Origin: an uncultured Chloroflexota bacterium
GTDB lineage: Bacteria; Chloroflexota; Anaerolineae; Anaerolineales; Anaerolineaceae
Direction of reading: 5' to 3'
Length of the DNA stretch: 64,000 bases
Assembly: GCA_902774215.1 (NCBI GenBank)
Contig: CACYHU010000058.1
Coordinates: 14,987-78,986 of the forward strand
The translations under genes and the position numbers were made by a program. The notes under the pieces were generated by a model. It worked only from the letters and a program-made list of their open reading frames with translations. It was not told where the DNA came from and did not search any database. This document shows, one piece after another, positions 12,072 to 53,125 of this stretch; positions within the stretch are counted from its first letter, which is position 1, and the number at the start of each line of letters is the position of its first letter.

Positions 12072-13703
12072 ATGAATTTTGTCCGGATGGGATATAATCC
12101 AGTTATGGGAACGATTATTGATCTTTCTACACCATTGCAAAAAAAAAGTTCCGCTGAGGAGGAGTTTTCCCGATCCCGTTTTGATACAGAAATTATTCAT
12201 TTACAGAACTATGATAATTTTTACAGTCTGATGGATCGGCTTCAGCAATGGGATGCTTCGGGAGAAGATTGCCACAGGCTTCTGCTTTTATGGCCTGCCA
12301 GGGGGAAAATTCTTGAGTCTCCGCTTGATTTTAGCCGTATGCGCAGTTGGGCTAAGCAGAACCATTATGAGATTGCGCTTGTGATTCCCGGAGATAAAAT
12401 AAAGCGTGAAATTGCAGCGGAGGAGGGAGTTTCTGCTTTTGAAAGCATAAAAGAAGCTGAAGAAAAAGATTGGAAATCCTTTGAAAATAGTATTCCCATT
12501 ACTGAAGAACATCAAAGACTGCGGAATCTTATTATTCTGAAGGAGAACGTAGAAAAAACACAACACACGCGGTCATCATTCGGGATCAGTATATGCTCAT
12601 TTCTCCTGACGATAGCTGTATTATTGGGCGTTTGTTACGCAATATTACCGCAAGCCCGGGTCGTAATTACACCTTATCTCACAAGGAAAAGTATAAACAT
12701 GACGATCTGGACAGATGACCGATTAGATATCCCTACCATAGCCGGCGGTATTCCAACGGAGGAAAGAGTTTATGAGTTGTATTTATCTGCAGAGGTACCT
12801 GCCAGCGGTGTGGTTCAGACAGTACCCGGTGTTGCGGTTGGTGAAATACTTGTTCAAAATAGCTGCAGCCGTATAGTCTCTTCTCCGGCAGGAGTACTGG
12901 TAGGAACTGATGAAGATTTTGAGAGTGGTGTTAATTTTATAACGCTTGAAGATATTTCTCTTCCCCCTGATACCCAAAAGACAGTCCGAATTGAAGCTGT
13001 GAATGGCGGAGAATCGGGTAATCTGAACGCAGGAAGGATATTATTCGCGGAATACCCCGAATCATTGTGCTGGAATATTACACAAATACAACCCACACAT
13101 GGCGGAACATCCGGTACGTATAAATCTCCGAATGAAAATGATTTGGAAAAAGCGCGGAAACAGATAGAATCACAAATTCCGGAAGCTGCATATATGGCAT
13201 TAGAAAATGATCCGGATGGGCATGATCTTCTTCCGCTTGGTGATGCGGTTGTTACGGCAGTAAAAAGCATTAACTATTCTCCTGAAATGGGATTTGCCGC
13301 TGATATGCTGAATGTGAGAGAGTCGTTAGAAGTAACCTATAAAACGATTCGGAAATCTGATATGGAAATGATTGTGGAGGGTCAGGCTTCACGTATGAAT
13401 ATTCAGGCTGTCAGCTTTACAGGATATGAAATCCTTTCCGAGCCAAAAGAGAAGAATGGTTTGCTGACATGGGATGTTCGTGCCGATTATCTCGTTTATG
13501 AGCCGCAATCAAATGAGGAAGCTTTGCAGATCATGCTGCGGGGAAAAACCCTGGAACAGGCAGATTCGATTTTAAAAACGCTCGATCATGTGAAATCTTC
13601 CAAAATAACGCTTTTTCCATCGATTTTAAAACGAATGCCTCTCACTGCACAGAATATTAAAGTGATCATTTATCCGGCTGTTGAGGTGGAGAAGGAAAAA
13701 TGA
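12072..13703 (+). CDS. Hypothetical protein with one TM segment (543 aa; start uncertain)
   Basis: Long ORF with an internal TM helix (ICSFLLTIAVLLGVCYAILP) and no recognisable motif. A TATAAT lies at 12099-12104, so the true start may be the downstream MGTIIDL. Confidence 0.4.
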   Translation: MNFVRMGYNPVMGTIIDLSTPLQKKSSAEEEFSRSRFDTEIIHLQNYDNFYSLMDRLQQWDASGEDCHRLLLLWPARGKILESPLDFSRMRSWAKQNHYEIALVIPGDKIKREIAAEEGVSAFESIKEAEEKDWKSFENSIPITEEHQRLRNLIILKENVEKTQHTRSSFGISICSFLLTIAVLLGVCYAILPQARVVITPYLTRKSINMTIWTDDRLDIPTIAGGIPTEERVYELYLSAEVPASGVVQTVPGVAVGEILVQNSCSRIVSSPAGVLVGTDEDFESGVNFITLEDISLPPDTQKTVRIEAVNGGESGNLNAGRILFAEYPESLCWNITQIQPTHGGTSGTYKSPNENDLEKARKQIESQIPEAAYMALENDPDGHDLLPLGDAVVTAVKSINYSPEMGFAADMLNVRESLEVTYKTIRKSDMEMIVEGQASRMNIQAVSFTGYEILSEPKEKNGLLTWDVRADYLVYEPQSNEEALQIMLRGKTLEQADSILKTLDHVKSSKITLFPSILKRMPLTAQNIKVIIYPAVEVEKEK

Positions 13704-22905: not shown

Positions 22906-23841
22906 CTAACTTCTATTCAATTCCTCAATAATATCAGGGAGCTGTTGGTCTACAGTATCATTTTCGAGTTGGCAGGTACCGGCATTACGATGGCCGCCTC
23001 CGCCATACTTCAGACAAAGCGCGCCAATATCAGCGTTGGAACCTTTGTTAACGATTGACTTTCCGATCATGACAGCCGTGTTCTGTTTTTTGAAGCCCCA
23101 GGCGACATGTATGGAAATTTGTGCTTCAGGGAAGAGTGCATAGATCATGAAACGGTTTCCGGCATGGATCACTTCTTCATTGCGGAGGTCCAGGACGACG
23201 ACTTTATCATATACTTTTGCAAGGCGCAGCAGCTGTTTCTTGAAAAGGTCAGCCTGTTCGAAATAGAGATCAACGCGTTCTTTTACATCGGGCAGTTCAA
23301 GAATTTCGTCAATGTCATGTTCCAGACAGTAGTCGATGAGTTCCATCATCAGAGCATAGTTTGAGATGCGGAAGTCATGGAAGCGGCCGAGGCCGGTCCG
23401 GGCATCCATCAGATAATGAAGCAGTACCCAACCGGTAGGATTGAGGATTTCATCCATGCTAAAGTCTGCACTGTCGCCTTTATCTACTGCAGCCATGAGA
23501 TCATCGGAGATACGCGGAAAAGCTTCTTTTCCACCGTAATAGTCATATACGACGCGGGCTGCGCTGCGGGCTTTCGGATCAATGATGAGTTTTCCACCTG
23601 TTTCGATAGCCTTAAGTCGTTCTTCTTCAGATTCGTGATGATCAAAAGCAATGGATACACGCGGATCATATGGCAGATTTGTGGTAATATCGTTTTTACT
23701 CAGCTCAATCTTGCCATCCTGGACATCTTTGGGATGGACAAATTTGATTTCGTCTATGAGTCCCTTCTCTTTGAGCATCATGGCGCAGGCAAGTCCATCA
23801 AAATCGCTTCTTGTTACAAGTCTTCTTGTTTGCTGTTCCAT
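22906..23841 (-). CDS. DHH-family phosphoesterase (NrnA-like)
   Basis: DHH motifs SDFDG and AFDHH, plus the DHHA1 GGGH motif (KYGGGGHRNAG). Confidence 0.7.
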   Translation of the reverse strand: MEQQTRRLVTRSDFDGLACAMMLKEKGLIDEIKFVHPKDVQDGKIELSKNDITTNLPYDPRVSIAFDHHESEEERLKAIETGGKLIIDPKARSAARVVYDYYGGKEAFPRISDDLMAAVDKGDSADFSMDEILNPTGWVLLHYLMDARTGLGRFHDFRISNYALMMELIDYCLEHDIDEILELPDVKERVDLYFEQADLFKKQLLRLAKVYDKVVVLDLRNEEVIHAGNRFMIYALFPEAQISIHVAWGFKKQNTAVMIGKSIVNKGSNADIGALCLKYGGGGHRNAGTCQLENDTVDQQLPDIIEELNRS

Positions 23842-23939: not shown

Positions 23940-25013
23940 TTAGTAAAAACCGTGAACAAGGAAAGGAAGATTTCTTTCAACAAGCATTACAACGACGTAA
24001 TCGGGATCTTCTTCGTCGAGGTTGATTCGATACAATTCTCCGTAAGTCACGAAGTGAATCTCCGTGATGTCGTGGATGGCAGACTGCATGAAATATTCTG
24101 AAAACGAATCTCCGATGAGCAGCATCTTTTTTTGTACCGGAGCATCAGACATGAAGCGCTGAAGTTTTCCGTGATCGACTGTTTCAGGTTTCCAAACGCT
24201 GATACCGTCATTGTAATCGATTGCAACTCCGTTCTGTTCGGGAATTTGTTCGGAGAGTCCCAGCATACCTGCGAGATCCTTTCCTTCGCTTTTGTAATAA
24301 TGGAATTGCGGCATGTTCTTTGGCAGCGGTGCACCGGTAAAGGCTGTCCGGACCTGTGCAGCGGCGATCCATCCGCCCAGATTATTCCAGTGTGTGTCTG
24401 TTGTGTAATAGACCGGATCTGTCAGACTGAGTTCTGTCAGATGACGCTTTGGATAAAGCACCGGAAAACTGACTTTATCTGTAAGGTAACTGACGACCTG
24501 ATCCCCTTTGCTTTCTTCGGATATTCTTTGTATTCTTGCCGGCATTAATGAAGGATAAACCTGTTCCTTATCCGGTGCTATATAAAGAAGGCACTCCGCT
24601 CCGTGCCTGCTCAGCGGATCGAACAGTTCTTCCAGATTATGCCGGATTTTTTCCAACTCATTATCTGTAAATCTATCGATTCCCTTATAATTCTCAATTG
24701 TTTTGCGGTAGAAAAGATGATTATCTATACCCCGAATCACGTCTGATTGTACGAAATCCTGTTCGCTATGCAGCTGAAAACCGCGATAAAGCTCAATGAA
24801 TTGTGTTTTGAATGGCAGTACATCCAGAAACCACTCCTCGAAGCGTTTGGTCCAGGTTGAATAGTTTTCTGCGGTCAGCTCCGGAAATTCACTTTGTGCT
24901 TTATTTTCTGTGTTTTTATATCCGATCTGTTCGCGGAATAGAAAAAAAACTGGAACCGGGACAAAAACAAGGATAATGAAACAGATTAGAAAGATGATGC
25001 CGTGATTTTTCAT
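23940..25013 (-). CDS. AlgX/AlgJ-like (DHHW family) SGNH-type protein, polysaccharide O-acetylation partner
   Basis: N-terminal TM helix. DTHW motif (YYTTDTHWNNLGG). It lies directly downstream of an MBOAT gene. Confidence 0.7.
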   Translation of the reverse strand: MKNHGIIFLICFIILVFVPVPVFFLFREQIGYKNTENKAQSEFPELTAENYSTWTKRFEEWFLDVLPFKTQFIELYRGFQLHSEQDFVQSDVIRGIDNHLFYRKTIENYKGIDRFTDNELEKIRHNLEELFDPLSRHGAECLLYIAPDKEQVYPSLMPARIQRISEESKGDQVVSYLTDKVSFPVLYPKRHLTELSLTDPVYYTTDTHWNNLGGWIAAAQVRTAFTGAPLPKNMPQFHYYKSEGKDLAGMLGLSEQIPEQNGVAIDYNDGISVWKPETVDHGKLQRFMSDAPVQKKMLLIGDSFSEYFMQSAIHDITEIHFVTYGELYRINLDEEDPDYVVVMLVERNLPFLVHGFY

Positions 25014-25021: not shown

Positions 25022-26422
25022 CTAAAACCTGAAATAAATAAAAGGATTATGCGCTGCGTTTGCAAGCATCACAATAGAAAAGAACAGGCAAAGGATAGCT
25101 GCAGCACCGCTGACAACTTCCCGCATTTTAGTTGTAGTGAGCAAAGTAAATCTCTCTTTGTAATTGCCCAAAGAAAGAATCAGCCCTATTACAAAGATGC
25201 ATATTGTGACCGGATCTACGATTTCCCAAAAGTTCCAATAACCGTTTCCTGTAGGGAAAAACATTTGACGTAACTGAGTAAGGGCAGATGAAAGATCATC
25301 GGCTCGGAACAATACCCAGCCAATACATACGATAAACAGCGTATAGATATGTTTGAGCAGCATACCAAATCGGGTGGGTATCCTATCGGATGGCAGCAGC
25401 CGTTCTATGATCAGGAAGATTCCGTGGTAAAGGCCCCATAAGACAAAAGTCCATTGCGCACCGTGCCATAATCCGGTTGCGAAAAAGACGATGCATAGGT
25501 TGATTATTGTTCGTAAAGTTCCTTTACGATTTCCTCCGAGCGGGATATAAAGGTAATCGCGGAACCAGGTGGAAAGAGAAATATGCCAGCGCCGCCAGAA
25601 TTCACGGATAGAAGAAGAAGTATATGGGAGGTTGAAGTTCTCCCGAAAATGAAAACCAAGGACTTTTGCTAAACCGATAGCCATATCAGAATAACCGGAA
25701 AAGTCAAAATAGATTTGAAGCGTATAAAAAACAGCTGCGGTCCAACACAGCAATGAAGAAAGTTCACTGATTGGATGTCGGAGAATCTCATCAACCGTAT
25801 ACCCGAGTGTATTGGCAATCAGAACCTTTTTTGCCAACCCAAAGCAAAAACGTTTCAATCCGATGACCGTTTCACTAAAGTGCATCTCCCGATGGTGAAG
25901 TGATGCTGCAATATCTTTATATTTTACGATCGGACCTGCGACCAGCTGAGGAAAAAAAGAAATATAAAGTGCTAAATTTATCCAGGAACGCTGGACTTCG
26001 ATCGTCCCTCTCCAGAGATCTGTTATATATGAAATTGATTGGAAAGTGTAAAAGGAAATACCGATTGGTAATGCAATTTTTTGCAGCGGGATTGCTTCAA
26101 AATTTAAAAGATCGTTAAGTGTTTCGGCGAAGAAATTGAAATATTTAAAATATGCCAGTAAAAGCAGATTCATTGAGATGACTGCAATTAGCAACAGATT
26201 ACGCAGAAATTTACCGCTTACCATATTGATAAGCAGTCCTCCAGCATAATTCATTGTAATTGAAAAGAGCAGCAGGACGATGAATTTCGGTTCACCCCAT
26301 GCGTAAAAAACCAGGCTCATGATGAGCAGAAACAGATTGCTGCCTTTTTTTCGTGTAATTAGTGCACCAATCAGAGTGATTGGAAGAAAAATCCATAAAA
26401 AAGGAAACGAACTGAATACCAT
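25022..26422 (-). CDS. MBOAT-family O-acyltransferase (AlgI/DltB-like)
   Basis: 466-aa polytopic protein with a conserved His in the WHISLSTWFRDYLYIPLGG context. Confidence 0.8.
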   Translation of the reverse strand: MVFSSFPFLWIFLPITLIGALITRKKGSNLFLLIMSLVFYAWGEPKFIVLLLFSITMNYAGGLLINMVSGKFLRNLLLIAVISMNLLLLAYFKYFNFFAETLNDLLNFEAIPLQKIALPIGISFYTFQSISYITDLWRGTIEVQRSWINLALYISFFPQLVAGPIVKYKDIAASLHHREMHFSETVIGLKRFCFGLAKKVLIANTLGYTVDEILRHPISELSSLLCWTAAVFYTLQIYFDFSGYSDMAIGLAKVLGFHFRENFNLPYTSSSIREFWRRWHISLSTWFRDYLYIPLGGNRKGTLRTIINLCIVFFATGLWHGAQWTFVLWGLYHGIFLIIERLLPSDRIPTRFGMLLKHIYTLFIVCIGWVLFRADDLSSALTQLRQMFFPTGNGYWNFWEIVDPVTICIFVIGLILSLGNYKERFTLLTTTKMREVVSGAAAILCLFFSIVMLANAAHNPFIYFRF

Positions 26423-26430: not shown

Positions 26431-27858
26431 TTATAATCCGCTATCCGGTATAATGCAGCGGAAACCGAGAAAATAATTCGGTTTTGAAGCATGCCCGCGA
26501 TAATCAGTACGCAGCATGAACATAGTCTCCTCTGCTTCTAATGGGGATGCGGAACCACCGCGAATGACATATTCCGCTGCGGATGAGTCTGATTTACTTC
26601 CGTCTGTTTCCGGTTCATACAGCGTTGACGTCCATTCCCATACATTTCCTGCCATGTCCAATACACCGAAAGGACTTTCACCATCTGGGAAAGACCCTAC
26701 TGAAAGCAAATCACTTGTTTCTCCCGGTACATTGGCGTAGATTGTTGATTCTTCCGGAAATTCATTTCCCCATGGATATATGTTCCCGCTGATACCGCGT
26801 GCTGCCTTTTCCCATTGAAGTTCTGTAGGAAGTTTTCCTCCAATCCATTTGCAGAACCGCTGTGCCTGTTTGTAAGTAACGTAATTTGCCGGCTGATCAG
26901 CGGTTTCTGTGTTCATAATATCCATCGTCAGGGATTCTTCACAAAGACCGGCTTCCACACATTTGCGGAATTGTGCATTGGTGACTTCAGTTTTTCCGAT
27001 CCAATATCCATCAATGCTAACTTCTTTTAGCTCTTCTGCAGGACCGAAAAGGAAGGATCCTGTAGGAATGTAAACCATTTCTATTCCACTCAGTGGTTCA
27101 ATAATAATTTTTCGAATCTTAGATTCAGAGCTTTCTTCATTTCCAGGTTCAGCTCCTGAGATTTCCTTTGTTTCATCATTTAATGGTTCTGTCTGTAAAT
27201 TTGAAAGATTTGTAAGTAATATCTGTTCATCTTCATCTGATTTATCGTTTTCAGCTTGTTCCGATGAGTCCATTAATAATATCTGATTTTCCAAATCAGT
27301 GTCTGTCAGATCGCTGTTGCTGGATTCATTGTCATTATTTTCTGAATTTATTTCTTCTTCTGTTGATGACATTGTAATGAGTGTCTCGTCTTCATCCGGT
27401 TTAATTAGCTGTTCATCTTTTTCATCAGCCAGGGATGTTTTTGTTGTATCAGAGTCTGAAAGCTTTTTCTCTAATACTTCCTTCTCATTGCTCAGGGATA
27501 TGATGACAGCGTCTGCTTCGGTGAGTTTTGCCTGCAGTTCATCTTTTTCACCGGTCAGGGATGTGACAGAAGCGTTTGATTCAGCGAGTTGTGCCTGTAG
27601 TTCATCTTTCTCGCCGCTGAGGAACGTGACAGCAGCGTTTGCTTCGGTGAGTTTTGCCTGCAGTTTATCTTTTTCACCGGTCAGGGAAGTGACAGCAGCG
27701 TTTGCTTCAGCGAGTTTTGCCTGCAGTTCATCTTTTTCACCAGTCAGGGATGTGACAGAAGCGTTTGCTTCGGTGAGTTTTGCCTGCAGTTCATCTTTTT
27801 CACCGGTCAGGGATGTGACAGAAGCGTTTGCTTCAGCGAGTTTTGCCTGCAGTTCATC
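26431..27858 (-). pseudogene. FGE (formylglycine-generating-enzyme/SUMF1) domain protein. Its reading frame continues upstream, without a stop, through the 63-bp tandem repeats to 27858. It is the C-terminal part of a gene split by a frameshift.
   Basis: FGE-domain motifs are present (YPWGNEF, RGGS..., GFRCI). Manual minus-strand translation of 27373-27858 in the FGE frame gives ...DELQAKLAEANASVTSLTGEKDELQ... repeats with no stop until TGA at 27859-27861. Confidence 0.6.
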
Positions 27859-28140
27859 TCAGGGATGTGACAGAAGCGTTTGCTTCGGTGAGTTTTGCCT
27901 GCAGTTCATCCTTTTCGCCGGTCAGTGTAGGAACAGCATTGTTTGCTTCGGTGAGTTTATTCTGCAGTTCATCCTTTTCGATAGTGAGCGAAGTGACAGC
28001 ATTGTTTGCTTCCGTGAGTTTATTTTGCAGTTCATCCTTTTCGATAGTGAGCGAAGTGACAGCATTGTTTGTATCGGTGAGTTTTGCCTGTAGTTCATCC
28101 TTTTCGCCAGTCAGGGATGTGACATTTTTTTGTAATGAGG
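27486..28140. repeat. About ten 63-bp tandem repeats encoding a 21-aa coiled-coil unit (AKLTEANASVTSLTGEKDELQ). One unit near 27855-27865 is truncated by 11 bp.
   Basis: Period 63 nt, e.g. 27721->27784. The unit at 27841-27870 reads ...gcagttcatctcagggatgtgac..., whereas the canonical unit reads ...gcagttcatctttttcaccggtcagggatgtgac... Confidence 0.85.
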
Positions 28141-28816
28141 TTATTATGATTTTGTTCTCTTTATTTTCCTGTGATAAAGTGTCTCTTTCTTCTGTCATTG
28201 TTTCCAATAAATTGTTCATTTCAACGATTTCAGTTTCTTTCCCGTTAATCTTTGTCTCTAAATCAGCCTGCTTATCTATAAGACTCGTGATATTATCCTG
28301 TGTATTTTTTAATTCTGATTGGAGACTGTCATTTTCGAGATTGATAGAAGTTATTACACCGGAAGCGTTTTTCAGCTCGTAATCTTTTCCCTTGATGGCA
28401 GCTTGTAAATTATTTAATTCGTCAGTTTGTTCATTGATAAGAGAAGTGCTTTCCGCAAGTTTTTTTGTGATTGAATTTTTCTCTTCAGTCAGCGTTGTGT
28501 TGGTTCTCAGCTCATCCTCAAGAGCTGTTGTTTTTTCATCGAGCTGGGTTTTTGTTTCAGAAAGATTATCAGATAATTCTGTGATCTTTTCATTCGCTTT
28601 GGTTAATTCTGAAACTTTTTCTTCCAAATTTTTTTGGATGGATTCATTTTCTCCTGTGAGTTTTTGAATTTGATCATTTGATTCTGTGATTTGGGAAGTC
28701 AAGGCTTCTTTTTCCTCGTTGAAGGATTTTTCAAGTAATGCGAATTTCCGGGCACTGCAGCCGGTACAAAACAAGATAAGTATTATGGTGAAAATGATAA
28801 TGGCTTGTTTTTTCAT
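27854..28816 (-). pseudogene. Coiled-coil repeat lipoprotein, the N-terminal part of the disrupted FGE-fusion gene
   Basis: Signal/lipobox-like N-terminus MKKQAIIIFTIILILFCTGCS, then heptad-rich sequence and the 21-aa repeats. It ends at TGA created by the 11-bp gap in the repeat. Confidence 0.6.
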
Positions 28817-29017: not shown

Positions 29018-30413
<1,396 letters not shown>

Positions 30414-30527
30414 ATGTGAACCGGGAAAAAGAGGATGAGGACAGCGGATTTTATCTCATGTTTTTATTGCATGTGTTCGACGATTTTGCTGTCTGCATCC
30501 TGTCATCTATAACCTGTATTCTGTATT

Positions 30528-30890
30528 CTAAAAATTGTCCCCATCAGTCAGATTCCTGATATAATCCAACTCGCTCATCACGGGTATTCCTTCTACAAGC
30601 AGGATATCTGTGAAAATCCCGTTCCCTTCAACTAATCCGCCATCAAATTTCCCGTTATGGATGATACCTGAACCGCAGGAAGGGCTTTTTGATTTCAAAA
30701 TGGCAGATGTGCATCCTGTTTCGCGACAGATGCGAAGTGCTTCCATTGCTCCTTTCCGATACTGTTCAGTTACATCTTCACCAAGCCGGTTGATCACTTT
30801 GCCGTCAGGCTGGATCTCACTTGGTTCGCGCGGCGTTGGCATCCCCATTCGGCATGGAATGCCCAATAAACATTTGCTCACAAGAATCAT
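30528..30890 (-). CDS. DUF523-family protein
   Basis: MILVSKCLLGIPCRMGMPTPREP; the CLLG.PCR signature is typical of DUF523. Confidence 0.55.
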   Translation of the reverse strand: MILVSKCLLGIPCRMGMPTPREPSEIQPDGKVINRLGEDVTEQYRKGAMEALRICRETGCTSAILKSKSPSCGSGIIHNGKFDGGLVEGNGIFTDILLVEGIPVMSELDYIRNLTDGDNF

Positions 30891-37158: not shown

Positions 37159-38823
37159 CTAACCGTCCTCCTGAATTTGTGCGAGGATTTTCCGCATTTG
37201 AGCTGCCTGGTCGGGATAGAAGGCGGCAAAGTCCGGGTCGCAGGCGAGGTAAATGATCTCTTCTTCGGTGAAGGTGATGGCTCCCTCTTCATTCGGACTG
37301 CTCCGATCGAAGGCATGCCGCAGGACCTCCAGATAGAAAGGTATATTAGGATCCGCGGTCATATGGTCCGGCGGATCATCCGGCGGCGGGTCTTCTACGT
37401 ATATTTGTTCTTCCGGAACAGGGTCAGGAATAGGAACCGTATCCGAAATTTCGGTTAATTGATCTGCTGCGTGTATATGTTCTTCCGGCATGGGATCAGG
37501 CTCCGGGTTTTCGGGCTGCCGCTCCTGACCGGGAACGGTATCCCCGCGTGCGGAGCGGCAGCGTGGGCGAAGCTCCCGCTCTGTATCTGAATCAGGCGAA
37601 GCCTGTACTTCTCGGAGCGGGTTTCGGACCGCCGACGGAGGAGGACTATCAGCGCTAAAGTTCGGCGTTAATTTTGAGGATCGATCTTCTTCCGGTAATT
37701 TACTTTCAGTGGTGGAGTTATCGGGAGAGCTGTTCTCCGCTTGTGCTTCCTCTGCAGGAGTGGTGTTTTCGGAAGAACTGATCTCCGGTTGTGATTCCTC
37801 TGTGGGAGCGGCGGTATCGGGAGAACTGATTTCCGCTTGTGATTCCTTTGCGGGAGTGGTGGTATTGGGGAGACTGATCTCTGGTTGTGATTCCTCTGCA
37901 GGGGTGGTGGTATTGGCGGGACGTACACAGCTGACCCGCTCGCGGTTCAGGCTGCATACGTCCCGGTGACCCGCTTGCGGGTCACCGCATACTTCGTTTG
38001 TTTCTTCCTTGCTTGATTTTTCAGAACTGATGGATTTCGAATTCCGAATTGCGTTTTTGCTCTTGCTTCCGCATTCGCGTGAGCCATCAAGGGCGGAAAG
38101 TGCGCGGGGCGCGGAAAAAGCGCCGGGTTCGAAGATCGCGGCGACATCGGGCAGCGGACGGCCGGAAACAGCGGAAATCATCGGTTTCCCCTGATCATCG
38201 TCGCTGAAAGGATCGGAAATCATCTGATTCCCCTGATCTCCGGCGCAGTTCGGGCGGCTGTTTCCGAGAGCTTCCGCATTCAATCTGACCACTGACCCCT
38301 GACTACTGACCGCTTTCTCAAGCTTGTCCTTCGTCTTATACAGCCTGAACAGCATATTCGTCCAGCTGAGCTGATTGATGAGCAGACGCTCGCTGATCTC
38401 CGGATGGGACTGAGCGGTCTGGATGACGCCGAGATAGCTCTTCCGGAAATGGTAGGAGGAAACGCTGATGAGGTCCCCGATCTGCATCGGGGCCTGAGCG
38501 AGATCCTCGCCCCGGTTGTGCAGGGCGACCAGTCCGCGGCCCATGGTCATGACGCCTTTCATCACTAATTTGGACAAATCTGTAAATTTCTTGGAAAAAT
38601 AGTTGGCTTTCTTTGCCTCGTCGATCCAGGTAATCAGGGAGTTATAGGCGAAGCCCATGATCTGGTGCGGGTCGACATCCTGTGAGACGAAGGGATCGAC
38701 GATATCGGTCGGCAGCGGAGCCCTGGCGAGGATCTCGCGTTCATGCGGCATCACCGCGCCGTTGTAAAGAGAATTCAGCGCGTTCTGGTACATCATGTTT
38801 TTTATCGCGGATCTGGTTGACAT
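37159..38823 (-). CDS. Hypothetical protein in a GC-rich segment, with a long Pro/Glu/Ser/Thr-rich repetitive linker
   Basis: 554 aa. Residues about 300-380 carry repeats of about 17 aa (NTTTPAEESQPEISSP...). Local GC is visibly higher than the neighbours. Confidence 0.5.
   Translation of the reverse strand: MSTRSAIKNMMYQNALNSLYNGAVMPHEREILARAPLPTDIVDPFVSQDVDPHQIMGFAYNSLITWIDEAKKANYFSKKFTDLSKLVMKGVMTMGRGLVALHNRGEDLAQAPMQIGDLISVSSYHFRKSYLGVIQTAQSHPEISERLLINQLSWTNMLFRLYKTKDKLEKAVSSQGSVVRLNAEALGNSRPNCAGDQGNQMISDPFSDDDQGKPMISAVSGRPLPDVAAIFEPGAFSAPRALSALDGSRECGSKSKNAIRNSKSISSEKSSKEETNEVCGDPQAGHRDVCSLNRERVSCVRPANTTTPAEESQPEISLPNTTTPAKESQAEISSPDTAAPTEESQPEISSSENTTPAEEAQAENSSPDNSTTESKLPEEDRSSKLTPNFSADSPPPSAVRNPLREVQASPDSDTERELRPRCRSARGDTVPGQERQPENPEPDPMPEEHIHAADQLTEISDTVPIPDPVPEEQIYVEDPPPDDPPDHMTADPNIPFYLEVLRHAFDRSSPNEEGAITFTEEEIIYLACDPDFAAFYPDQAAQMRKILAQIQEDG
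37690..37930. repeat. Imperfect tandem repeats of about 51 bp inside the hypothetical gene (they encode the P/E/S/T-rich units)
   Basis: Repeated ...ctgatytccgstgtgattcctctg.gggagtggtggtattgg... units. Confidence 0.6.
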
Positions 38824-39510
38824 CGTTAGCTCCTCTTCTTTAGGGTGTAGGTGGCAGGTGTTGGGTATCAGGTTTCAGGTGCCAGGTGTTAGTGGAACAG
38901 GAAGCGGCTTCGCCGCATTCTATTTATACTAACTGCTGCCTGCTGGCGACTGTTTGCTAATACTGCCGGCTGGCTGACCACTGATTCTATAACCTGTACC
39001 CAGTGACCTATAACCTGCACATTCTACATCCAACATCCTGCTTTCTGCCGACTGCCGACTGCCTGCTGCATACTGTCTGCTATAACAAACAGTCTACCCC
39101 ATAATTTAAAAAAAGAAAACCGCCAATATTGGCGGTTGACAAATGTTCGATTTTGTGGTAAAGCCCGAGTTTGCCACTTTAAAACATGAAAAAAGGACCG
39201 ATTTGGCCCCTTTTACGACAAAAGAATGAAAAAGTGCGTAAATTTATTTTGAATTTATGTGCCTTCCATTATAGCCCTGCAAGAAAATCTTTATTCCCGT
39301 TTTTCTTGATTTAAAATCCGTCCATCGATAAAGCTTCGGAGGAATATCAATTACAAAATCTTTCAATATCAAAGAAGGAACAGGATCATCTATATCCATA
39401 AACCGATAAAAATCATTAGGACACAGAAAAATGGTTTGCTGATTTTTGTCAAGGACTGTTTCCCTTAGGATATTTTATTTTGCATCATAATCAAACATTT
39501 CATATATATC

Positions 39511-39539
39511 TTGAAATAAGATTACATCTGTAATACAAT
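39511..39539 (+). promoter_or_regulatory. Candidate sigma70 promoter (TTGAAA -17 nt- TACAAT) for the RHH/SPFH/TIR operon. An A/T palindrome lies nearby and is a possible operator.
   Basis: TTGAAA at 39511-39516 and TACAAT at 39534-39539, about 35 nt upstream of the RBS AAGGAG at 39563. Confidence 0.4.
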
Positions 39540-39575
39540 ATTATAAAATAATTGATCAAACTAAGGAGCATTACA

Positions 39576-39764
39576 GTGAGTGACAAAAAGCTGGTCATTC
39601 AAAAACAGAAATACACGGGGGAAACCATTGTGACATCGATGCGGATTCCCAGGGATCTGCTGGCGGATCTTGATAAAGCTGCCAAAGAATCCAACAGGAC
39701 ACGAAACGAAGTTCTGATGATGTGTCTTGAGTTTGCTCTGGAAAATATGGAAATCGAAAAATAA
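39576..39764 (+). CDS. Ribbon-helix-helix (CopG/Arc-like) DNA-binding protein
   Basis: A GTG start lies 7 nt after AAGGAG. ...IVTSMRIPRDLLADLDKAAKESNRTRNEVLMMCLEFAL is the beta-strand plus two-helix RHH pattern. Confidence 0.6.
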   Translation: MSDKKLVIQKQKYTGETIVTSMRIPRDLLADLDKAAKESNRTRNEVLMMCLEFALENMEIEK

Positions 39765-39778
39765 AGGGGACGTTGAAG

Positions 39779-41551
39779 ATGGGTAAGTTTGTGATCGAAT
39801 GTCCGAGATGCGGAAAATTTACTGAGGCCTCAACCGGCTTCTTCGCCAAAAGGAAAATCATGTGTTCCTGTGGGTACACGATTGATGTTAGAACCGATAA
39901 AATGTCATCTCGTGTCTGTCAGCACTGCGGCAATACGGTGATTTTTGACCAGAGCAAAGGCGCTGATGCCCGATGCCCGGTTTGCGGCCAGCCGATCAAC
40001 ACGATGTCCGAGCAGTCAAAGATGGAAGAGATCTCCTGCGAACAATGCGGGGTCCGTTTTACCGTAAACAAAGCAGTTCCTACCTATGTCTGTCCTGTCT
40101 GCGACCATGTCAATGATGTTGCGGAAAGGGTCGCAAAGGAAAAGATCAGAAAAGACGGGCTCGCCAGCATCATCAAATATGAGGGCAGCGGAGATACACT
40201 GGTCTGGAAACACCCGATCGAGGATTTCAACTACGGTTCACAGCTCATCGTCCATGAAAGTCAGGAGGCTGTCTTTTACCGGGACGGTCAGGCACTGGAT
40301 CTTTTCGGTCCGGGACGCTATACGCTGGAAACACAGCAGCTGCCCATGCTTGAAAAGATCTACAAGCTGCCGACTGACACTGAAGGAACCTTCCATTCCG
40401 AAGTTTACTATATCAACCTTGCTACGGTCATGGGGATCAAATGGGGCACGGATTCCAAGGTCAGGATGTTTGATCCAAGCTCCGGAATGCATGTGGAACT
40501 CGGTGCCTGCGGGGAATTCAATATCCGTGTGATCAACTCCCGAAAGCTGCTTGCCAAACTCGTCGGGACGGGCGGCGTATTGAAACAGGAGCAGCTCATC
40601 GGGATGGGAGACGGCAAGGGATATTTTCGCGGAATGATCATGACCCAGGTCAAGAGTTATCTGGCTCAGGCGATCAAAGCTGCGAATATCAGCGTTCTCG
40701 AAATCGACGAGCGTCTGATGGATCTTTCCGCTGAACTGCGTAATCGGCTGAATAGTTTCCTTGCGGATTATGGCTTGGAAATGCCTGAATTCTTCGTCAC
40801 AAGAGTCATGACTCCTGATGATGATCCGAATTTCCGCCGAATGAAAGAACAGTATGCTCAGCAGTTTCTTCTCGTCCGTCAGGAACAGATACGCAAGCAG
40901 GAAGCGGAAGCTGCTGCCGCACGCAAGGAAGTTGAGGCTGCGACAGCTGCGCGCATGAAAATAATTGGTGCTCAGGGAGATGCGGAAGCCCTTCGGGCGA
41001 AGGCACAGGCGGAAGCTGACGCCTACCGTATGCAGGCGGAAGCTGAAGCGCTCGAAATGAAGATGAAAGGTTATACATACCAGCAAGAAACAGCACGCCA
41101 GGTTGGTATGGAAGCAATGAAGAATGGTATCTCCGGCGGAGCAGGCGCGGGTGCGCTGGGTGACCTCGCCGGGTTGGGAATCAGTCTTGGTGCGATGGGC
41201 AGCGTGATCGGCATGACAAAAGATGCCTTGCAGCCTGCGGCTGAAACCGCGAAAGGTCTTGGTCAAATGGTCGGTGCCTCTATCACAGATAACGCCGGTT
41301 GGGACTGCGAATGCGGACAGAAAGGAAATACAGGAAACTTCTGTATGAACTGCGGCGCAAGAAAACCTCAGCAGAAGGCTGCTTCAGACACCTGGAATTG
41401 TGAATGCGGTGCGAAGGGCAACACCGGAAAATTCTGTCCGAATTGTGGCGCAAAACGTCCAGAAATCAATACCGGATGGGATTGCAGCTGCGGTCAGAAG
41501 AACAACACAGGAAAGTTCTGCGCTAATTGTGGAAAGAAACGGGAGGAATAA
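39779..41551 (+). CDS. Zinc-ribbon / SPFH (band-7) / zinc-ribbon fusion protein
   Basis: The N-terminus has three CxxC...CxxC ribbons (CPRCG..CSCG; CQHCG..CPVCG; CEQCG..CPVCD). An SPFH core follows (…YINLATVMGIKWGTDSKVRMFDP…), then an EA-rich coiled coil and a Gly-rich segment. The C-terminus carries three repeats of WDCxCGxKxNTGxFCxNCGxKR. Confidence 0.7.
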   Translation: MGKFVIECPRCGKFTEASTGFFAKRKIMCSCGYTIDVRTDKMSSRVCQHCGNTVIFDQSKGADARCPVCGQPINTMSEQSKMEEISCEQCGVRFTVNKAVPTYVCPVCDHVNDVAERVAKEKIRKDGLASIIKYEGSGDTLVWKHPIEDFNYGSQLIVHESQEAVFYRDGQALDLFGPGRYTLETQQLPMLEKIYKLPTDTEGTFHSEVYYINLATVMGIKWGTDSKVRMFDPSSGMHVELGACGEFNIRVINSRKLLAKLVGTGGVLKQEQLIGMGDGKGYFRGMIMTQVKSYLAQAIKAANISVLEIDERLMDLSAELRNRLNSFLADYGLEMPEFFVTRVMTPDDDPNFRRMKEQYAQQFLLVRQEQIRKQEAEAAAARKEVEAATAARMKIIGAQGDAEALRAKAQAEADAYRMQAEAEALEMKMKGYTYQQETARQVGMEAMKNGISGGAGAGALGDLAGLGISLGAMGSVIGMTKDALQPAAETAKGLGQMVGASITDNAGWDCECGQKGNTGNFCMNCGARKPQQKAASDTWNCECGAKGNTGKFCPNCGAKRPEINTGWDCSCGQKNNTGKFCANCGKKREE

Positions 41552-41554
41552 GTC

Positions 41555-42241: not shown

Positions 42242-42255
42242 CTCCGGGAGGAATT

Positions 42256-46065: not shown

Positions 46066-46098
46066 CATAAAATGTTTAGGAAAAAACAAAAATCATTA

Positions 46099-50321: not shown

Positions 50322-50440
50322 GGAGCTGCCGCAAATTAGAATTTTGAAAAGCCATCGGGAGGGAGTGCTTCGCAGGGACGCGGAATAAACGTCAGCAGCC
50401 TGCGAAAGTGATCCCCGCGTCCCGGTTAATTCAGTCGGAG
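50322..50440. repeat. Dispersed element of about 115 nt, copy A (candidate structured ncRNA or small repeat). A second copy lies at 63587-63702.
   Basis: ggagctg...aatta.aa.tttgaaaagccatYgggagggagtgcttcgcagggacRcggaataaWcgtcagcWgcctgYgaaagtgatccccgcgtcccggttaattcagtcgg is shared by the two copies at about 90% identity. Internal complement GGGACGCGG...CCGCGTCCC. Confidence 0.6.
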
Positions 50441-50560
50441 GGCTCTTTTTCTGATTTACCCGTAAAAAAAGCAATGGGTACTTTTTGATGGTATTTCTGA
50501 AAAAAGCTGTCGTACATCTTTTATGGTGTACGACAGCTCCTGATTCATATATAACAGGTA

Positions 50561-51484
50561 TTATTCTTCGGCAACCTTGACGATGACCGGTTTCTTTGCT
50601 TTTCCGACGGCTGTCCAGGAAAGAGCGTTTTTCGGACAGACCTTTACACATTCTCCGCAGCGAATACATTCAGCGCTGTTGGGATTTTTCATCGGGTCAA
50701 CACCCATCTTGCACTGGCGGGAACAGGCGCCGCAGTTAACACAGGAGCTCTCATCAAAGCTCATGCGGAGAATGCTGACCTTCTGGAACAGGGCATAGAA
50801 GGCACCCAACGGGCAGACGTATTTACAGAAGGGACGGTAAATAAAAATCGAAGCTGCCACGCAAAGGATCAGCAGGATAAATTTCCAGCGGAAAAGTGCC
50901 CCGGCTGCCGCCCGCATACCGCTGTTCAAAAGGACCAGCGGAATCCCGCCTTCCAGTGTGCCGACCGGGCAGATATATTTACAGAACCACGGCATGCCGA
51001 CATTGACCTCATTGCGGTAAAAGAATGAGAGTCCGAAGACAAATACGAACAGCATTATATATTTCAGATACCGAAGAATTTTATCTGCTTTTTCCGGTAC
51101 TGTGATTTTGGGAGTCGGGATCTTATACAAAAGCTCCTGGATCAGGCCGAAGAGGCACAGCCAGCCGCAGATAAAACGTCCGACCAGCATTCCAATAGCA
51201 GCCAGGTAGCCGACGACATAAAATGCGAATTTCCGTTTTCGTGCGTCAAACAATGCCTGCATCGATCCGATGGGGCAGGCACCGACAGCACCGGGGCAGG
51301 AATAACAGTTCATGCCCGGGACGCAGAACTTCTTCAATGGGCCCTGATAAATTTGACCGGTGATAAATCCTGCCAAATGCGCGTTGTGCAGAAGTCCCCA
51401 GCCGCCCTGTACCGCTTTGCGGATGCGGGTATGCTTGATCAAATCCTGTTTAGCCAATGCCGATACACTCCATGCAGATGGCAA
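50561..51484 (-). CDS. Polytopic 4Fe-4S ferredoxin-type membrane protein (NapH/NosR-like)
   Basis: Cys clusters CYSCPGAVGACP, CPVGTLE and CVNCGACSRQCK...CIRCGECVKVCP, with several TM helices. The track start is a TTG. Confidence 0.7.
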   Translation of the reverse strand: MPSAWSVSALAKQDLIKHTRIRKAVQGGWGLLHNAHLAGFITGQIYQGPLKKFCVPGMNCYSCPGAVGACPIGSMQALFDARKRKFAFYVVGYLAAIGMLVGRFICGWLCLFGLIQELLYKIPTPKITVPEKADKILRYLKYIMLFVFVFGLSFFYRNEVNVGMPWFCKYICPVGTLEGGIPLVLLNSGMRAAAGALFRWKFILLILCVAASIFIYRPFCKYVCPLGAFYALFQKVSILRMSFDESSCVNCGACSRQCKMGVDPMKNPNSAECIRCGECVKVCPKNALSWTAVGKAKKPVIVKVAEE

Positions 51485-51599
51485 CAGCCTTCCGCATCAC
51501 ATCCTTCCACTCCCCGCGATATACGCCATACGCGCACATGGCGATCGCGAGCACCAGAAGTACATAGGTTACCCAGGCGGGTATTTCTTTCCGGTTCAT
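51450..51599 (-). CDS. Small CXXC-motif membrane protein (CD1871A-like) upstream of the NapH-like gene. It is absent from the ORF track because it is shorter than 60 aa.
   Basis: Manual translation MNRKEIPAWVTYVLLVLAIAMCAYGVYRGEWKDVMRKAVAICMECIGIG (49 aa). RBS GGAGGAG lies 4 nt upstream. One TM helix plus the C-terminal CMEC motif. Confidence 0.55.
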   Translation of the reverse strand: MNRKEIPAWVTYVLLVLAIAMCAYGVYRGEWKDVMRKAVAICMECIGIG

Positions 51600-51970
51600 G
51601 ATTACTCCTCCTTGTGTATTTATTTTCTAAATATTTCGCCATACGGTCCTGACAGGCAGAAATTATTGCGTCCATAAGTAGTATACCATTTTGTCTCAAA
51701 TTCAGATAAATAAAATATGCATATCGGTGAAAATTATTTTTCTTTTGAATAAATCAGTGCTTTCCTGCAGAATTGGTACAGTGTACAATATATTATGAAT
51801 CCTATCTGCTTATTTAATAAACTTGTGGTAGGATAAATGAAAAAGATGTCTTGAGTCAGTGAAATTTTTAAATTGTCGAAATTTGTATCATATTTTTGAA
51901 ATCGATATGGAAGGCTGCCGCTTTTCACTGATAGAAAAAGCTTGTGAATAAAATAAGGAGTAATGTAATA

Positions 51971-53125
51971 ATGATCGATCAACAGTTGGTTAAATGGGGA
52001 AAAAGCGGAAACATCATCCGCGAGATTGCGGAGTATTGTGATGAACAGGCAAAAATTGTAGGCGAGGACCATGTTTATAATTTCACTATCGGCTCTCCGA
52101 GCATTGATCCGCCGGCTCGCGTTTTTGAAGTAATGAATAAGCTGATGTCTTCCGTTCCTCCCGCCCGGCTTCACACTTATGCCCCCGCGATCGGTTTTCC
52201 CGAGGTTCGGGAAAAAGCCGCGGAATATCTGGAAAAAACATTCGGAATACCTTACCGCAAGCAGGATGTCATCATCACCTGCGGCACATCTACCTGTCTG
52301 GCTGCGCTGACAAAGGTCCTTCTTTCCGGCGGCGGCAGGGCTATGACCTTTACTCCGTACTTTATGGACTATAAATATTACGCTGAGGCTTATGGCAGCG
52401 GACTGACAGAATGTCCTACCACCCCGGACACCTTCCAGCTTGACCTCGAGGCTGCAGAGAAGGCACTGACAAGTGATACCATGATGATCATCATAAACTC
52501 GCCGAATAATCCCTCCGGCGTGGTGCTGAAACGGGAAGGACTTGAGGAATTGGCCAGGCTGTTATACAAGAAGCAGGCTGAGTACGGACATCCAATCTAC
52601 ATCGTTGCTGATGAGCCATACCGTGACCTGGTTTATGACGGGCAGGAAGTTGTATTTCTACCTTCCATTTATAAAAATACGATCTATTGTTATTCCTTTA
52701 GTAAATCCATTTCTCTCCCTGGTGAGCGCGTCGGCTTTATGGCTTTTACGCCGGAACTTGATGATTATTTCGATATATACTCAGCTGCCATAGCCGTCAT
52801 CCGTGCTTTCGGGTATATCTGTGTGTCAAGCATGTGGCAGCGGATCTGTATTGAATGTCTTGGTGAAACGAGTGACATTTCGATTTACAAAGGAAACAGA
52901 GACCTGCTGTATGGCTCGCTCACGGAGATGGGGTATCAGTGTGTTTATCCTGACGGAGCGTTCTATCTTTTCATGAAAACACCGGAACCTGACGCGATGG
53001 TTCCCGGGGATAGTTTCGGAACACCCGGATATGTCCGCATTGCCTATTGTGTCAGCAGAGAAGTGATCGAGCGTGCCCTTCCTGTTTTTCGCAAACTTGC
53101 GGAAGAATACAGGATCGCCCGGTAA
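51971..53125 (+). CDS. Class I/II PLP-dependent aminotransferase (aspartate/aromatic aminotransferase-like)
   Basis: 385 aa. Lys in the SFSKSISLPGERVG context (the PLP site). RBS AAGGAG precedes the ATG at 51971. Confidence 0.7.
   Translation: MIDQQLVKWGKSGNIIREIAEYCDEQAKIVGEDHVYNFTIGSPSIDPPARVFEVMNKLMSSVPPARLHTYAPAIGFPEVREKAAEYLEKTFGIPYRKQDVIITCGTSTCLAALTKVLLSGGGRAMTFTPYFMDYKYYAEAYGSGLTECPTTPDTFQLDLEAAEKALTSDTMMIIINSPNNPSGVVLKREGLEELARLLYKKQAEYGHPIYIVADEPYRDLVYDGQEVVFLPSIYKNTIYCYSFSKSISLPGERVGFMAFTPELDDYFDIYSAAIAVIRAFGYICVSSMWQRICIECLGETSDISIYKGNRDLLYGSLTEMGYQCVYPDGAFYLFMKTPEPDAMVPGDSFGTPGYVRIAYCVSREVIERALPVFRKLAEEYRIAR

What the first reader, a model, noticed from the sequence alone, without database searches (positions are those of the whole stretch)
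26431..28816. FGE-domain gene fused in frame to a 63-bp tandem-repeat coiled-coil lipoprotein, split by an 11-bp gap inside one repeat unit
Manual translation shows the FGE ORF frame stays open upstream through every 63-bp repeat (…GEKDELQAKLTEANASVTSL…) up to TGA at 27859-27861. The upstream lipoprotein ORF ends at the overlapping TGA at 27854-27856, one frame away.

The only irregular repeat unit (27841-27870) lacks 11 nt, reading catc[tttttcaccggt]caggg. The original gene would encode an 800-aa lipoprotein made of a signal, a coiled-coil stalk and a C-terminal FGE/SUMF1-like domain.

There are three readings. It may be a genuine pseudogene. It may be a repeat-slippage ON/OFF switch for a surface protein. 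It may be an assembly collapse within the repeat array.
Basis: seen in the sequence. Interest (0 to 1): 0.6.

Follow-up and report, generated by a model that had tools for sequence, protein, structure and literature searches.

The report
Repeat-stalk lipoprotein split by record-specific gap
The "split" gene is really one conserved surface lipoprotein gene (signal, repeat coiled-coil stalk, FGE-like head), and the 11-base gap that breaks it is absent from another assembly of the same strain, so it is most likely an assembly defect rather than biology.

Summary
On the minus strand, a 63-bp tandem array (about 10 units, 27481-28124) contains one 52-bp unit (27859-27910). This unit lacks ACCGGTGAAAA. 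A 320-aa lipoprotein ORF therefore stops at 27854. The FGE-domain frame is open from 27858, but its first start codon is at 27372.

The inferred ancestral gene is also correct. Relatives encode single ORFs of 575-877 aa with the same signal, 21-aa-repeat coiled coil, acidic linker and FGE-like domain. In every fetched orthologous locus that extends downstream, MBOAT and AlgX-type genes follow.

The split itself is private to this record. An independent public scaffold of the same strain has no substitutions in the flanks. It carries the full 63-bp unit and reads on in frame until a 100-N gap in the array.

Over about 34 kb compared, the window lacks five more segments (39-83 nt). It has no private insertions. 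Three of the six losses shift the frame of genes that are intact in the other scaffold.

The best reading is an assembly or consensus defect (about 0.6). A real recent null allele is the main rival (about 0.3). A slippage ON/OFF switch is not supported, because the unit length is a multiple of three.

The FGE-like head lacks the catalytic cysteine pair. Interest is low.

The parts
27854..28816 (-). 5' fragment ORF of 320 aa. It comprises a signal peptide with a lipobox-like ...LFCTGC, a non-repeat coiled coil, and the first repeat units. In the window it ends at TGA 27854-27856.
   Evidence: The N-terminus is 88% identical to L005 and 58% identical to the intact P0123.
28757..28816 (-). Signal peptide and lipobox-like motif: MKKQAIIIFTIILILFCTG-C.
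   Evidence: Read from the sequence. Orthologues have LSGC, VTGC, LTGC or CTGC at the same place. No signal-peptide predictor was run.
27481..28124 (-). 63-bp (21-aa) tandem repeat array of about 10 units. The unit consensus is GEKDELQAKLTEANASVTSLT, three heptads per unit.
   Evidence: TRF. Unit table.
27859..27910 (-). The single 52-bp unit. The junction lies between 27860 and 27859. ACCGGTGAAAA is missing, which puts the downstream sequence in the +1 frame.
   Evidence: The full unit is present in L001.
26431..27858 (-). 3' fragment. It is open from just after TGA 27859-27861, and its first possible start is ATG 27372. It holds repeats, an acidic linker (about 27082-27396) and the FGE-like domain.
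26452..27081 (-). FGE-sulfatase (C-type-lectin-like) domain. It lacks the catalytic Cys pair of true FGEs.
   Evidence: Pfam E=2.5e-41. AF2 pLDDT 91. Foldseek TM about 0.75 to FGE, EgtB, CalU17 and PvdO. The positions of human C336 and C341 align to Pro and Glu.
25022..26422 (-). MBOAT membrane O-acyltransferase. It starts 8 nt after the FGE stop codon and is a conserved neighbour.
   Evidence: Synteny.
23940..25013 (-). AlgX-type SGNH acetyltransferase-like protein, a conserved neighbour.
   Evidence: Synteny.
22906..23841 (-). 311-aa protein with no family match. It is a conserved neighbour in the closer relatives.
29353..30845 (.). Three further window-private deletion junctions. A 59-nt loss at 29353/29354 and a 45-nt loss at 29786/29787 both fall in the alpha-amylase gene. 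An 83-nt loss at 30845 falls in a PF04463 gene.
50438..52998 (.). Two more window-private deletion junctions. A 45-nt intergenic loss lies at 50438/50439. A 39-nt in-frame loss in an aminotransferase gene lies at 52997/52998.

Best explanation
The two ORFs are halves of one conserved gene.

**The protein (inferred).** It is a membrane-anchored lipoprotein. About 450 residues of coiled coil form its stalk, partly built from a copy-number-variable 21-aa (63-bp) repeat. The stalk carries an acidic linker and a non-catalytic FGE-fold (C-type-lectin-like) head. The head is probably a binding module.

**The operon.** The gene is first in an operon with an MBOAT and an AlgX-type SGNH protein. Together these form a two-component glycan O-acyltransferase module. 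The organism is a rumen Anaerolineaceae-like bacterium.

**The 11-nt gap.** It is a private feature of this sequence record. Most likely it is a small unassembled or mis-joined stretch inside a repeat array that short reads cannot resolve. It is not a programmed or long-standing feature of the organism. The true array probably holds more units than the window shows.

**Shown versus inferred.**
- Shown: the single-ORF architecture in relatives; the intact unit in another assembly of the same strain; the deletion-only differences between the two assemblies; purifying selection; the FGE fold without the catalytic cysteines.
- Inferred: that the cause is an assembly defect, and the protein's surface or glycan-related role.
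For: 1. **Independent assembly has the full unit.** L001 is ENA scaffold_43 of sample SAMEA5383888. It is 100% identical to the window over 7,390 nt downstream and in the upstream blocks. At the site it reads ...CCCTGACCGGTGAAAAAGATGAAC.... Its lipoprotein frame stays open for 354 codons through the site, up to a 100-N scaffold gap in the array. The FGE frame is open from just after that gap.
2. **Five more private losses.** The window lacks five further segments present in that scaffold: 59, 45, 83, 45 and 39 nt. There are no private insertions. Outside one 300-nt SNP cluster there are no substitutions.
3. **The losses damage conserved genes.** The two amylase segments are conserved in the sister species and include the DIVLNH motif. 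A real lineage with this many disruptive deletions and almost no point changes is implausible.
4. **The array defeats short-read assembly elsewhere.** L002 is a contig that ends in it. L003, L006 and L007 have N gaps in it.
5. **Unit number differs between records.** The window has 10 units, while the 92%-identical relative L005 has about 14.
6. **Relatives encode one ORF** of 575-877 aa.
7. **Purifying selection.** For the FGE part, dN/dS is 0.28 against L005 and 0.08 against L008.
8. **No independent expression signals.** There is no start codon in 162 open codons upstream of ATG 27372, and promoter-like sites do not exceed chance.
Against: - No reads could be examined.
- De Bruijn contigs cannot normally contain a junction k-mer that is absent from the reads. 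If this record is a plain contig rather than a gap-closed or N-stripped scaffold, some reads must carry the junction, and it would then be a real minority or strain allele.
- Other relatives carry independent disruptions of the same gene. L005 has a 1-nt loss in an A-run just after the array, while L006 is in frame at that site. L004 has TTA>TAA, while L089 and L090 are intact. Real null alleles of this gene may therefore circulate.
- The source and assembly method of the window's record are unknown to me.
Confidence: 0.6

Rival explanations
1. The 11-bp deletion is real. It would be a recent null allele (a nascent pseudogene) of the lipoprotein gene in the strain or sub-population that dominated this assembly. 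It could revert by loss of the 52-bp direct repeat.
For: - The junction exists in the record, and de Bruijn assemblers do not invent k-mers.
- Independent disruptions of the orthologue occur in other populations: a 1-nt A-run deletion in L005 and a TAA nonsense codon in L004, which is a distinct strain 98.6% identical to the intact L089.
- Surface proteins are often lost under phage or host pressure (general knowledge).
- Deleting one copy of the 52-bp direct repeat at 27807-27910 (96% matches) would give a net loss of 63 nt and restore the frame.
Against: - The same strain assembled independently has the intact unit.
- The allele would sit in a lineage with five more deletions in about 34 kb and essentially no SNPs. 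Three of the six losses shift the frame of genes that are intact in the other scaffold.
- dN/dS well below 1 shows the gene is under purifying selection.
Confidence: 0.3
2. The split is a programmed, reversible ON/OFF phase-variation switch driven by slipped-strand mispairing in the repeat array.
For: - A long tandem repeat sits in a surface-protein gene.
- Copy number differs between relatives.
- OFF-to-ON reversion by a 52-bp deletion is mechanistically easy.
Against: - The unit is 63 bp, a multiple of three, so gain or loss of units never changes the frame.
- The 11-nt loss has only 1 nt of flanking microhomology and no 11-nt periodicity, so there is no regular ON-to-OFF route.
- No other locus carries this junction.
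- The other disruptions seen are of unrelated kinds at unrelated sites.
Confidence: 0.04
3. The two ORFs are meant to be separate, or they are joined at the ribosome by a programmed +1 frameshift at AGA-UGA.
For: The downstream frame is +1 relative to the upstream one, and the shift site abuts a UGA stop codon, which superficially resembles prfB.
Against: - All relatives with a resolved array encode one continuous ORF.
- There is no slippery P-site codon: AGA would have to re-pair on GAU.
- The site is not conserved, and L001 lacks it.
- The downstream fragment has no start codon for 162 codons and no signal peptide of its own.
Confidence: 0.02

Closest known systems
Formylglycine-generating enzyme (SUMF1/FGE) and the wider PF03781 superfamily (EgtB, OvsA, PvdO, CalU17, ToxD)
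   Same: - The C-terminal domain matches PF03781 with E=2.5e-41.
- The AF2 model superposes on human, S. coelicolor and T. curvata FGE, and on EgtB, CalU17 and PvdO, with TM about 0.73-0.78.
   Different: - The two catalytic, copper-binding cysteines (human C336 and C341) align to Pro and Glu. No Cys lies between the RGGS and GFRC motifs in the window protein, although some family members read RGGSCAP one residue after GGS, not at either catalytic position.
- No gene in the tabled neighbourhoods has a sulfatase Pfam hit.
- The domain sits at the end of a lipoprotein coiled-coil stalk.
FGE-fold lipoproteins used as structural or binding modules: the T9SS ring lipoprotein PorK/GldK and Treponema denticola TvpA (PDB 2y3c)
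   Same: - These are lipoproteins carrying a non-catalytic FGE or C-type-lectin-like fold at the cell envelope.
- Both appear among the sequence or fold matches.
   Different: - Scores are far below the GldK cutoff (55 against 350 bits).
- No T9SS genes appear in the tabled neighbourhoods.
- There is no DGR template repeat, and the C-terminal segment is conserved, not hypervariable, between orthologues.
- The long repeat coiled-coil stalk and the MBOAT/AlgX operon context are specific to this family.
Fibrillar surface proteins with tandem-repeat coiled-coil stalks whose repeat number varies (for example streptococcal M and M-like proteins; from general knowledge)
   Same: - An N-terminal export signal is followed by a long heptad-based coiled coil built from in-frame tandem repeats.
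- Copy number differs between strains, for example 10 units against about 14.
   Different: - The anchor is at the N-terminus (lipid) rather than a C-terminal LPXTG motif.
- A globular FGE-fold head sits at the distal C-terminus.
- There is no sequence relationship.
Two-component glycan O-acyltransferase modules: MBOAT plus an SGNH partner (AlgI/AlgJ/AlgX, PatA/PatB, DltB/DltD)
   Same: The two genes immediately downstream hit MBOAT (E=1.6e-32) and ALGX (E=1.4e-14). In every fetched orthologous locus that extends downstream they are syntenic with the lipoprotein gene.
   Different: - The DltB equivalog score (162 bits) is far below its cutoff of 375.
- A coiled-coil, FGE-fold lipoprotein partner was not found described: a full-text search for 'FGE-sulfatase' together with 'MBOAT' returned no papers.

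Membership tests
Pfam PF03781 FGE-sulfatase domain superfamily | Profile match above the gathering score, and the FGE or C-type-lectin-like fold. | tested here: met
   142.5 bits against a cutoff of 23.3. AF2 pLDDT 91.1. Foldseek TM 0.73-0.78 to FGE, EgtB, CalU17 and PvdO.
Canonical aerobic formylglycine-generating enzyme (SUMF1-type) | Pair of catalytic, Cu(I)-binding cysteines in the C-terminal CxxxxC segment (human C336 and C341). | tested here: not met
   In a BLASTP alignment to human SUMF1, the two Cys align to P195 and E200 of the domain. The window protein has no Cys between RGGS and GFRC; some family members read RGGSCAP one residue after GGS, not at either catalytic position.
Canonical aerobic formylglycine-generating enzyme (SUMF1-type) | A sulfatase substrate gene in the neighbourhood (a supporting feature, not strictly defining). 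| tested here: not met
   No gene with a sulfatase Pfam hit appears in the gene tables of L001 or L091.
Bacterial lipoprotein (SPase II substrate) | An N-terminal signal peptide ending in a lipobox with an invariant Cys. | tested here: inconclusive
   By eye only: MKKQAIIIFTIILILFCTG-C has a basic n-region, a hydrophobic core and T-G-C, but Cys at position -3. Orthologues have the canonical LSGC, VTGC and LTGC. No LipoP or SignalP tool was available.
Phase-variable contingency locus (slipped-strand mispairing) | A repeat tract in which gain or loss of units changes the reading frame, that is, a unit length that is not a multiple of three, or a homopolymer. | tested here: not met
   The unit is 63 bp. 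The frame change comes from an 11-nt loss with 1 nt of microhomology, not from a change in unit number.
Diversity-generating retroelement target (FGE-type C-type-lectin variable protein) | A template repeat homologous to the 3' end of the gene, plus a nearby reverse transcriptase. | tested here: not met
   blastn of 26431-26760 against the whole window finds only itself. The C-terminal segment is conserved between orthologues. No RT family appears in the gene tables.
Programmed +1 ribosomal frameshift (prfB-like) | A conserved shift-prone codon before an in-frame stop, retained in relatives. | tested here: not met
   The site is AGA UGA A. It is absent from L001 and from all orthologues, which are in frame.
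MBOAT plus SGNH glycan O-acyltransferase operon | An adjacent MBOAT gene and an AlgX/AlgJ/PatB-type SGNH gene on the same strand. | tested here: met
   Pfam MBOAT E=1.6e-32 and ALGX E=1.4e-14. The order is conserved in L002-L005, L007, L008 and L089. Activity and substrate cannot be tested with these tools.

The most novel reading that the evidence does not exclude
The coiled-coil, FGE-fold lipoprotein is the exposed, ligand-binding component of an undescribed envelope-glycan O-acylation system (lipoprotein, MBOAT, AlgX-like protein) in rumen Anaerolineaceae. Natural populations would keep a mixture of intact and null alleles of it as a population-level ON/OFF polymorphism of a surface structure, for example under phage or host pressure. 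The candidate null alleles are the 11-nt deletion here, the 1-nt A-run deletion in L005 and the TAA codon in L004.
Probability: 0.12. Interest if true: 0.4.

Novelty: new member of a known kind. Interest (0 to 1): 0.15.

Why it matters
As flagged, it matters little. The frameshift is most probably a defect of one metagenome-derived record. It should not be annotated as a pseudogene, a phase switch or two genes.

Two practical points follow.
- This record carries several silent, deletion-only defects of 11-83 nt. They break neighbouring genes (an alpha-amylase, a PF04463 gene and an aminotransferase). Other apparent pseudogenes in the window should therefore be distrusted.
- The repaired gene defines a small, conserved and uncharacterised family of rumen Anaerolineaceae-like bacteria: a lipoprotein with a repeat-length-variable coiled-coil stalk and a cysteine-less FGE-fold head, always followed by an MBOAT/AlgX pair wherever the contig extends downstream. 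It is a reasonable but not urgent target for envelope biology of a poorly known phylum.

Tried and rejected
- **Word-indexed homologue search with the repaired 798-aa protein.** 8000 candidates, none scored; presumably swamped by coiled-coil words.
- **Same search with the 235-aa N-terminus.** Nothing found.
- **JGI metagenome scans.** Neither the N-terminal alignment nor a pattern matching both the deleted and the intact unit gave any hit.
- **GTDB genome scan with the FGE fragment.** Only distant FGE-domain genes (46% identity or less), mostly Anaerolineae. No orthologous locus was found.
- **Junction 26-mer in all fetched loci.** Absent.
- **Exact look-ups.** The 320-aa ORF and a window ORF at 12072-13703 are not on record. 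The last look-up, with the MBOAT protein, returned only the same scaffold. Its block list shows a 0.2-1 Mb contig that carries the MBOAT protein but not the 313-aa product. That contig might hold the intact allele, but I could not fetch it.
- **DGR hypothesis.** Prompted by the TvpA fold hit; rejected because there is no template repeat.
- **Programmed +1 frameshift and genuine two-gene readings.** Rejected on comparative grounds.
- **Promoter and terminator scan.** Counts are at the chance level, and there is no site between 27860 and 27372 on the minus strand.
- **Rfam scan of L091.** Run to explain the 45-nt GC-rich intergenic segment missing from the window; it found only a tRNA elsewhere.
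- **Nanopore indels as the cause.** The Stewart 2019 methods (PMC6785717) do not explain the deletions. There are no 1-2-nt indels in 18 kb of alignment.
Full report
**Observation**

The minus strand of 26431-28816 was read and translated. TRF reports a 63-bp tandem array at 27492-28124 with 10.2 copies, 83% matches and score 697.

In the GATGAACT register, the units start at 28099, 28036, 27973, 27910, 27858, 27795 and so on. All are 63 bp except 27910..27859, which is 52 bp. That unit reads ...GTCACATCCCTG|AGATGAACTG..., so ACCGGTGAAAA (or, equivalently, CCGGTGAAAAA) is missing. Only 1 nt of flanking microhomology is present.

The upstream ORF (28816..27854, 320 aa) starts MKKQAIIIFTIILILFCTGCSARK... 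and ends ...ASVTSLR* at TGA 27856-27854. The +1 frame opens immediately after TGA 27861-27859. It reads the repeats in register (DELQAKLAEANASVTSLTGEKDELQ...) for 162 codons with no ATG, GTG or TTG until ATG 27372. It then continues through an acidic linker to a C-terminal domain.

Re-inserting the 11 nt gives one 798-aa ORF. Residues 583-792 match Pfam FGE-sulfatase PF03781 (E=2.5e-41, 142.5 bits against a cutoff of 23.3).

**Is the fused gene the natural state?**

Yes. The closest relatives of the FGE fragment and their cluster members include two intact proteins:
- P0123 (731 aa). Its N-terminus, MKKQTIVLFTIILVLFCTGCSARKLALLEK..., is nearly the same as the window's 5' ORF. It continues through 21-aa repeats (TGEKDELQTKLTEAETAVTAL), an acidic linker and the FGE-like domain in a single ORF on a 49-kb contig (L008).
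- P0125 (695 aa). It has the same architecture and was seen in two independent samples (L089, L090).

An exhaustive HMMER search with the 320-aa 5' ORF found further diverged full-length members: P0127 (877 aa), P0128 (607 aa) and P0140 (575 aa). Each has a lipoprotein-type signal (CTGC, VTGC or LTGC), its own 21-aa tandem repeats, a low-complexity linker and the same C-terminal domain.

In every fetched orthologous locus that extends downstream, the gene is followed by an MBOAT gene and an AlgX-type SGNH gene. In the closer relatives a 311-aa unknown gene follows as well.

dN/dS for the FGE fragment is 0.28 against the 92%-identical relative L005 and 0.08 against L008. The N-terminal part gives 0.32. 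For comparison, the MBOAT gene gives 0.12 and 0.07. This is a gene under purifying selection, not an old pseudogene.

**Is the 11-nt gap real?**

The exact 313-aa FGE product led to a public scaffold, L001 (ENA ERZ28613750, STEW19-1_SAMEA5383888 scaffold_43, 191,776 bp). L001 is not the same record as the window.

It is 100% identical to the window over L001 5553-12942 (window 27820-20431) and in the upstream blocks. The window, however, lacks four segments that L001 has:
- the 11 nt of this finding;
- 59 nt at window 29353/29354;
- 45 nt at window 29786/29787;
- 83 nt at window 30845.

At the site of the finding, L001 reads ...GTCACATCCCTGACCGGTGAAAAAGATGAACTGCAGG..., a regular 63-bp unit. 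Its lipoprotein frame stays open for 354 codons through that site, up to a 100-N scaffold gap inside the array. The FGE frame is open from immediately after that gap.

A second stretch of the same scaffold, L091, covers window 32256-54043. It shows two more window-private losses: 45 nt at 50438/50439 and 39 nt at 52997/52998. There are no window-private insertions. The only substitutions are 21 SNPs, all within 38566-38882.

The two amylase segments missing from the window are conserved in the sister species. One includes the DIVLNH motif, and its loss shifts the amylase frame. The 83-nt loss disrupts a PF04463 gene that is intact in L001.

In total there are six clean, microhomology-free, deletion-only differences in about 34 kb, with essentially no point differences. 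Three of the six are frame-shifting losses in genes that are intact in the other scaffold. This pattern does not look like divergence of a living lineage. It looks like small unassembled stretches closed up without Ns, or a similar consensus defect.

One junction (50438) lies 12 nt beyond the end of an independent MEGAHIT contig, L092, which is 100% identical to the window at 39014-50426. This suggests these sites are places where assembly graphs break.

The repeat array also defeats short-read assembly in four other loci: a contig end in L002, and N gaps in L003, L006 and L007. Unit number differs between records as well: 10 in the window against about 14 in L005.

The source study used Illumina IDBA-UD and MEGAHIT assemblies plus one polished nanopore assembly (PMC6785717). 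The absence of any 1-2-nt indels in 18 kb of alignment argues against nanopore error. I could not identify which assembly the window comes from.

**Counter-evidence**

De Bruijn contigs do not contain k-mers that are absent from the reads. If the record is a plain contig, some reads must carry the junction, and it would then be a real (perhaps minority) allele.

Independent disruptions of orthologues also exist:
- L005 has a 1-nt loss in an A-run (GAAGAAAATT to GAAG-AAATT) just after an otherwise intact array. L006, from the same BioSample series, is in frame at that site.
- L004 has TTA>TAA in a strain 98.6% identical to the intact L089 and L090.

A real recent null allele therefore remains a serious rival (about 0.3).

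**Why this is not a slippage switch**

The unit length is a multiple of three, so unit gain or loss is frame-neutral. An 11-nt loss is not a slippage product of this array. The junction is absent from all 92 other fetched loci and from JGI metagenomes.

The only 'switch-like' property is one-way. The truncated unit creates a 52-bp direct repeat (27807-27910, 96% matches). Losing one copy would give a net loss of 63 nt and restore the frame.

A programmed +1 frameshift (AGA UGA A) and a true two-gene arrangement are both contradicted by the in-frame orthologues and by L001. The fragment also has no start codon for 162 codons, no promoter-like site between 27860 and 27372, and no signal peptide of its own.

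**What the protein is**

The AF2 model of the C-terminal 231 residues is confident (pLDDT 91.1, pTM 0.89). It has the FGE or C-type-lectin-like fold. TM is 0.73-0.78 to CalU17, EgtB, human, S. coelicolor and T. curvata FGE, and PvdO. Weaker matches go to PorK and to T. denticola TvpA (sequence-level matches).

No cysteine lies between RGGS and GFRC in the window protein. Some family members read RGGSCAP, with a Cys one residue after GGS, which is neither catalytic position. The domain is therefore not a formylglycine-generating enzyme.

Non-catalytic FGE-fold domains are known as envelope structural modules (PorK/GldK). They are also known as ligand-binding or sensor modules, including DGR targets and conflict-system proteins (PMC7159879). 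A DGR is excluded here, because there is no template repeat and the C-terminus is conserved.

My inference, at low-to-moderate confidence, has three parts:
- The protein is lipid-anchored to the membrane.
- It projects its FGE-fold head on a coiled coil of roughly 450 residues. That would be about 65 nm if fully extended at about 0.15 nm per residue, a figure from general knowledge.
- The head binds an envelope or external glycan related to the substrate of the co-transcribed MBOAT/AlgX O-acyltransferase pair.

The organism is probably a rumen Anaerolineaceae. The sister-species MAG carries that label, the nearest genome hits are Anaerolineae, and all orthologous contigs whose study I could identify come from ruminant gut studies.

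**Verdict**

The split itself is most likely an artefact of this record (0.6), or at most a very recent null allele (0.3). It is not a designed switch.

The gene family is an uncharacterised but unsurprising combination of known parts. Interest is low (0.15).

Noticed in passing
window 29048-30413 (+), junctions 29353/29354 and 29786/29787: The alpha-amylase gene is broken in the window by private 59-nt (frameshift, removes the DIVLNH region) and 45-nt (in-frame) losses. It is an intact gene of 489-490 aa in L001, L007 and L008.
   Followed up: yes
window ~30845; also 50438/50439 and 52997/52998: Three more window-private losses relative to ENA scaffold_43: 83 nt in a PF04463 (2-thiouracil desulfurase-like) gene, 45 nt of GC-rich intergenic sequence, and 39 nt in frame in an aminotransferase gene. 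An independent MEGAHIT contig (L092) ends 12 nt before the 50438 junction. Other apparent pseudogenes in this window should be distrusted.
   Followed up: partly
window 39773-49136: A candidate anti-phage defence island. It holds two Band_7/flotillin-like genes and three TIR_2-domain proteins (42256-44127 and 44245-46065 are about 87% identical over 1.1 kb; 47304-49136 also has TPR). It also holds an AbiH/SIR2-like 311-aa gene (46362-47297). The Pfam labels come from the L091 gene table.
   Followed up: no
window 38566-38882: All 21 substitutions between the window and ENA scaffold_43 over 18 kb fall within this ~300-nt stretch. L092 starts just downstream at 39014. This looks like a strain-variable or recombined patch.
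   Followed up: no
L005 ~2140-2150 versus L006 ~815-825: In a 92%-identical relative the repeat array is intact (about 14 units). A 1-nt loss in an A-run just after the array (GAAGAAAATT to GAAG-AAATT) splits the gene into 535-aa and 313-aa products. A contig from the same BioSample series is in frame at that site.
   Followed up: partly
L004 271-273 versus L089/L090 5876-5878: In a more distant orthologue, one strain (98.6% identical) carries TTA>TAA inside the non-repeat coiled coil. Two other samples have the intact 695-aa gene. This is a possible real null allele.
   Followed up: partly
The look-up of encoding contigs block list: A 0.2-1 Mb contig in the collection carries the identical MBOAT protein but not the 313-aa FGE product. 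It may hold the uninterrupted lipoprotein gene of this species. Look-ups were exhausted before I could fetch it.
   Followed up: no
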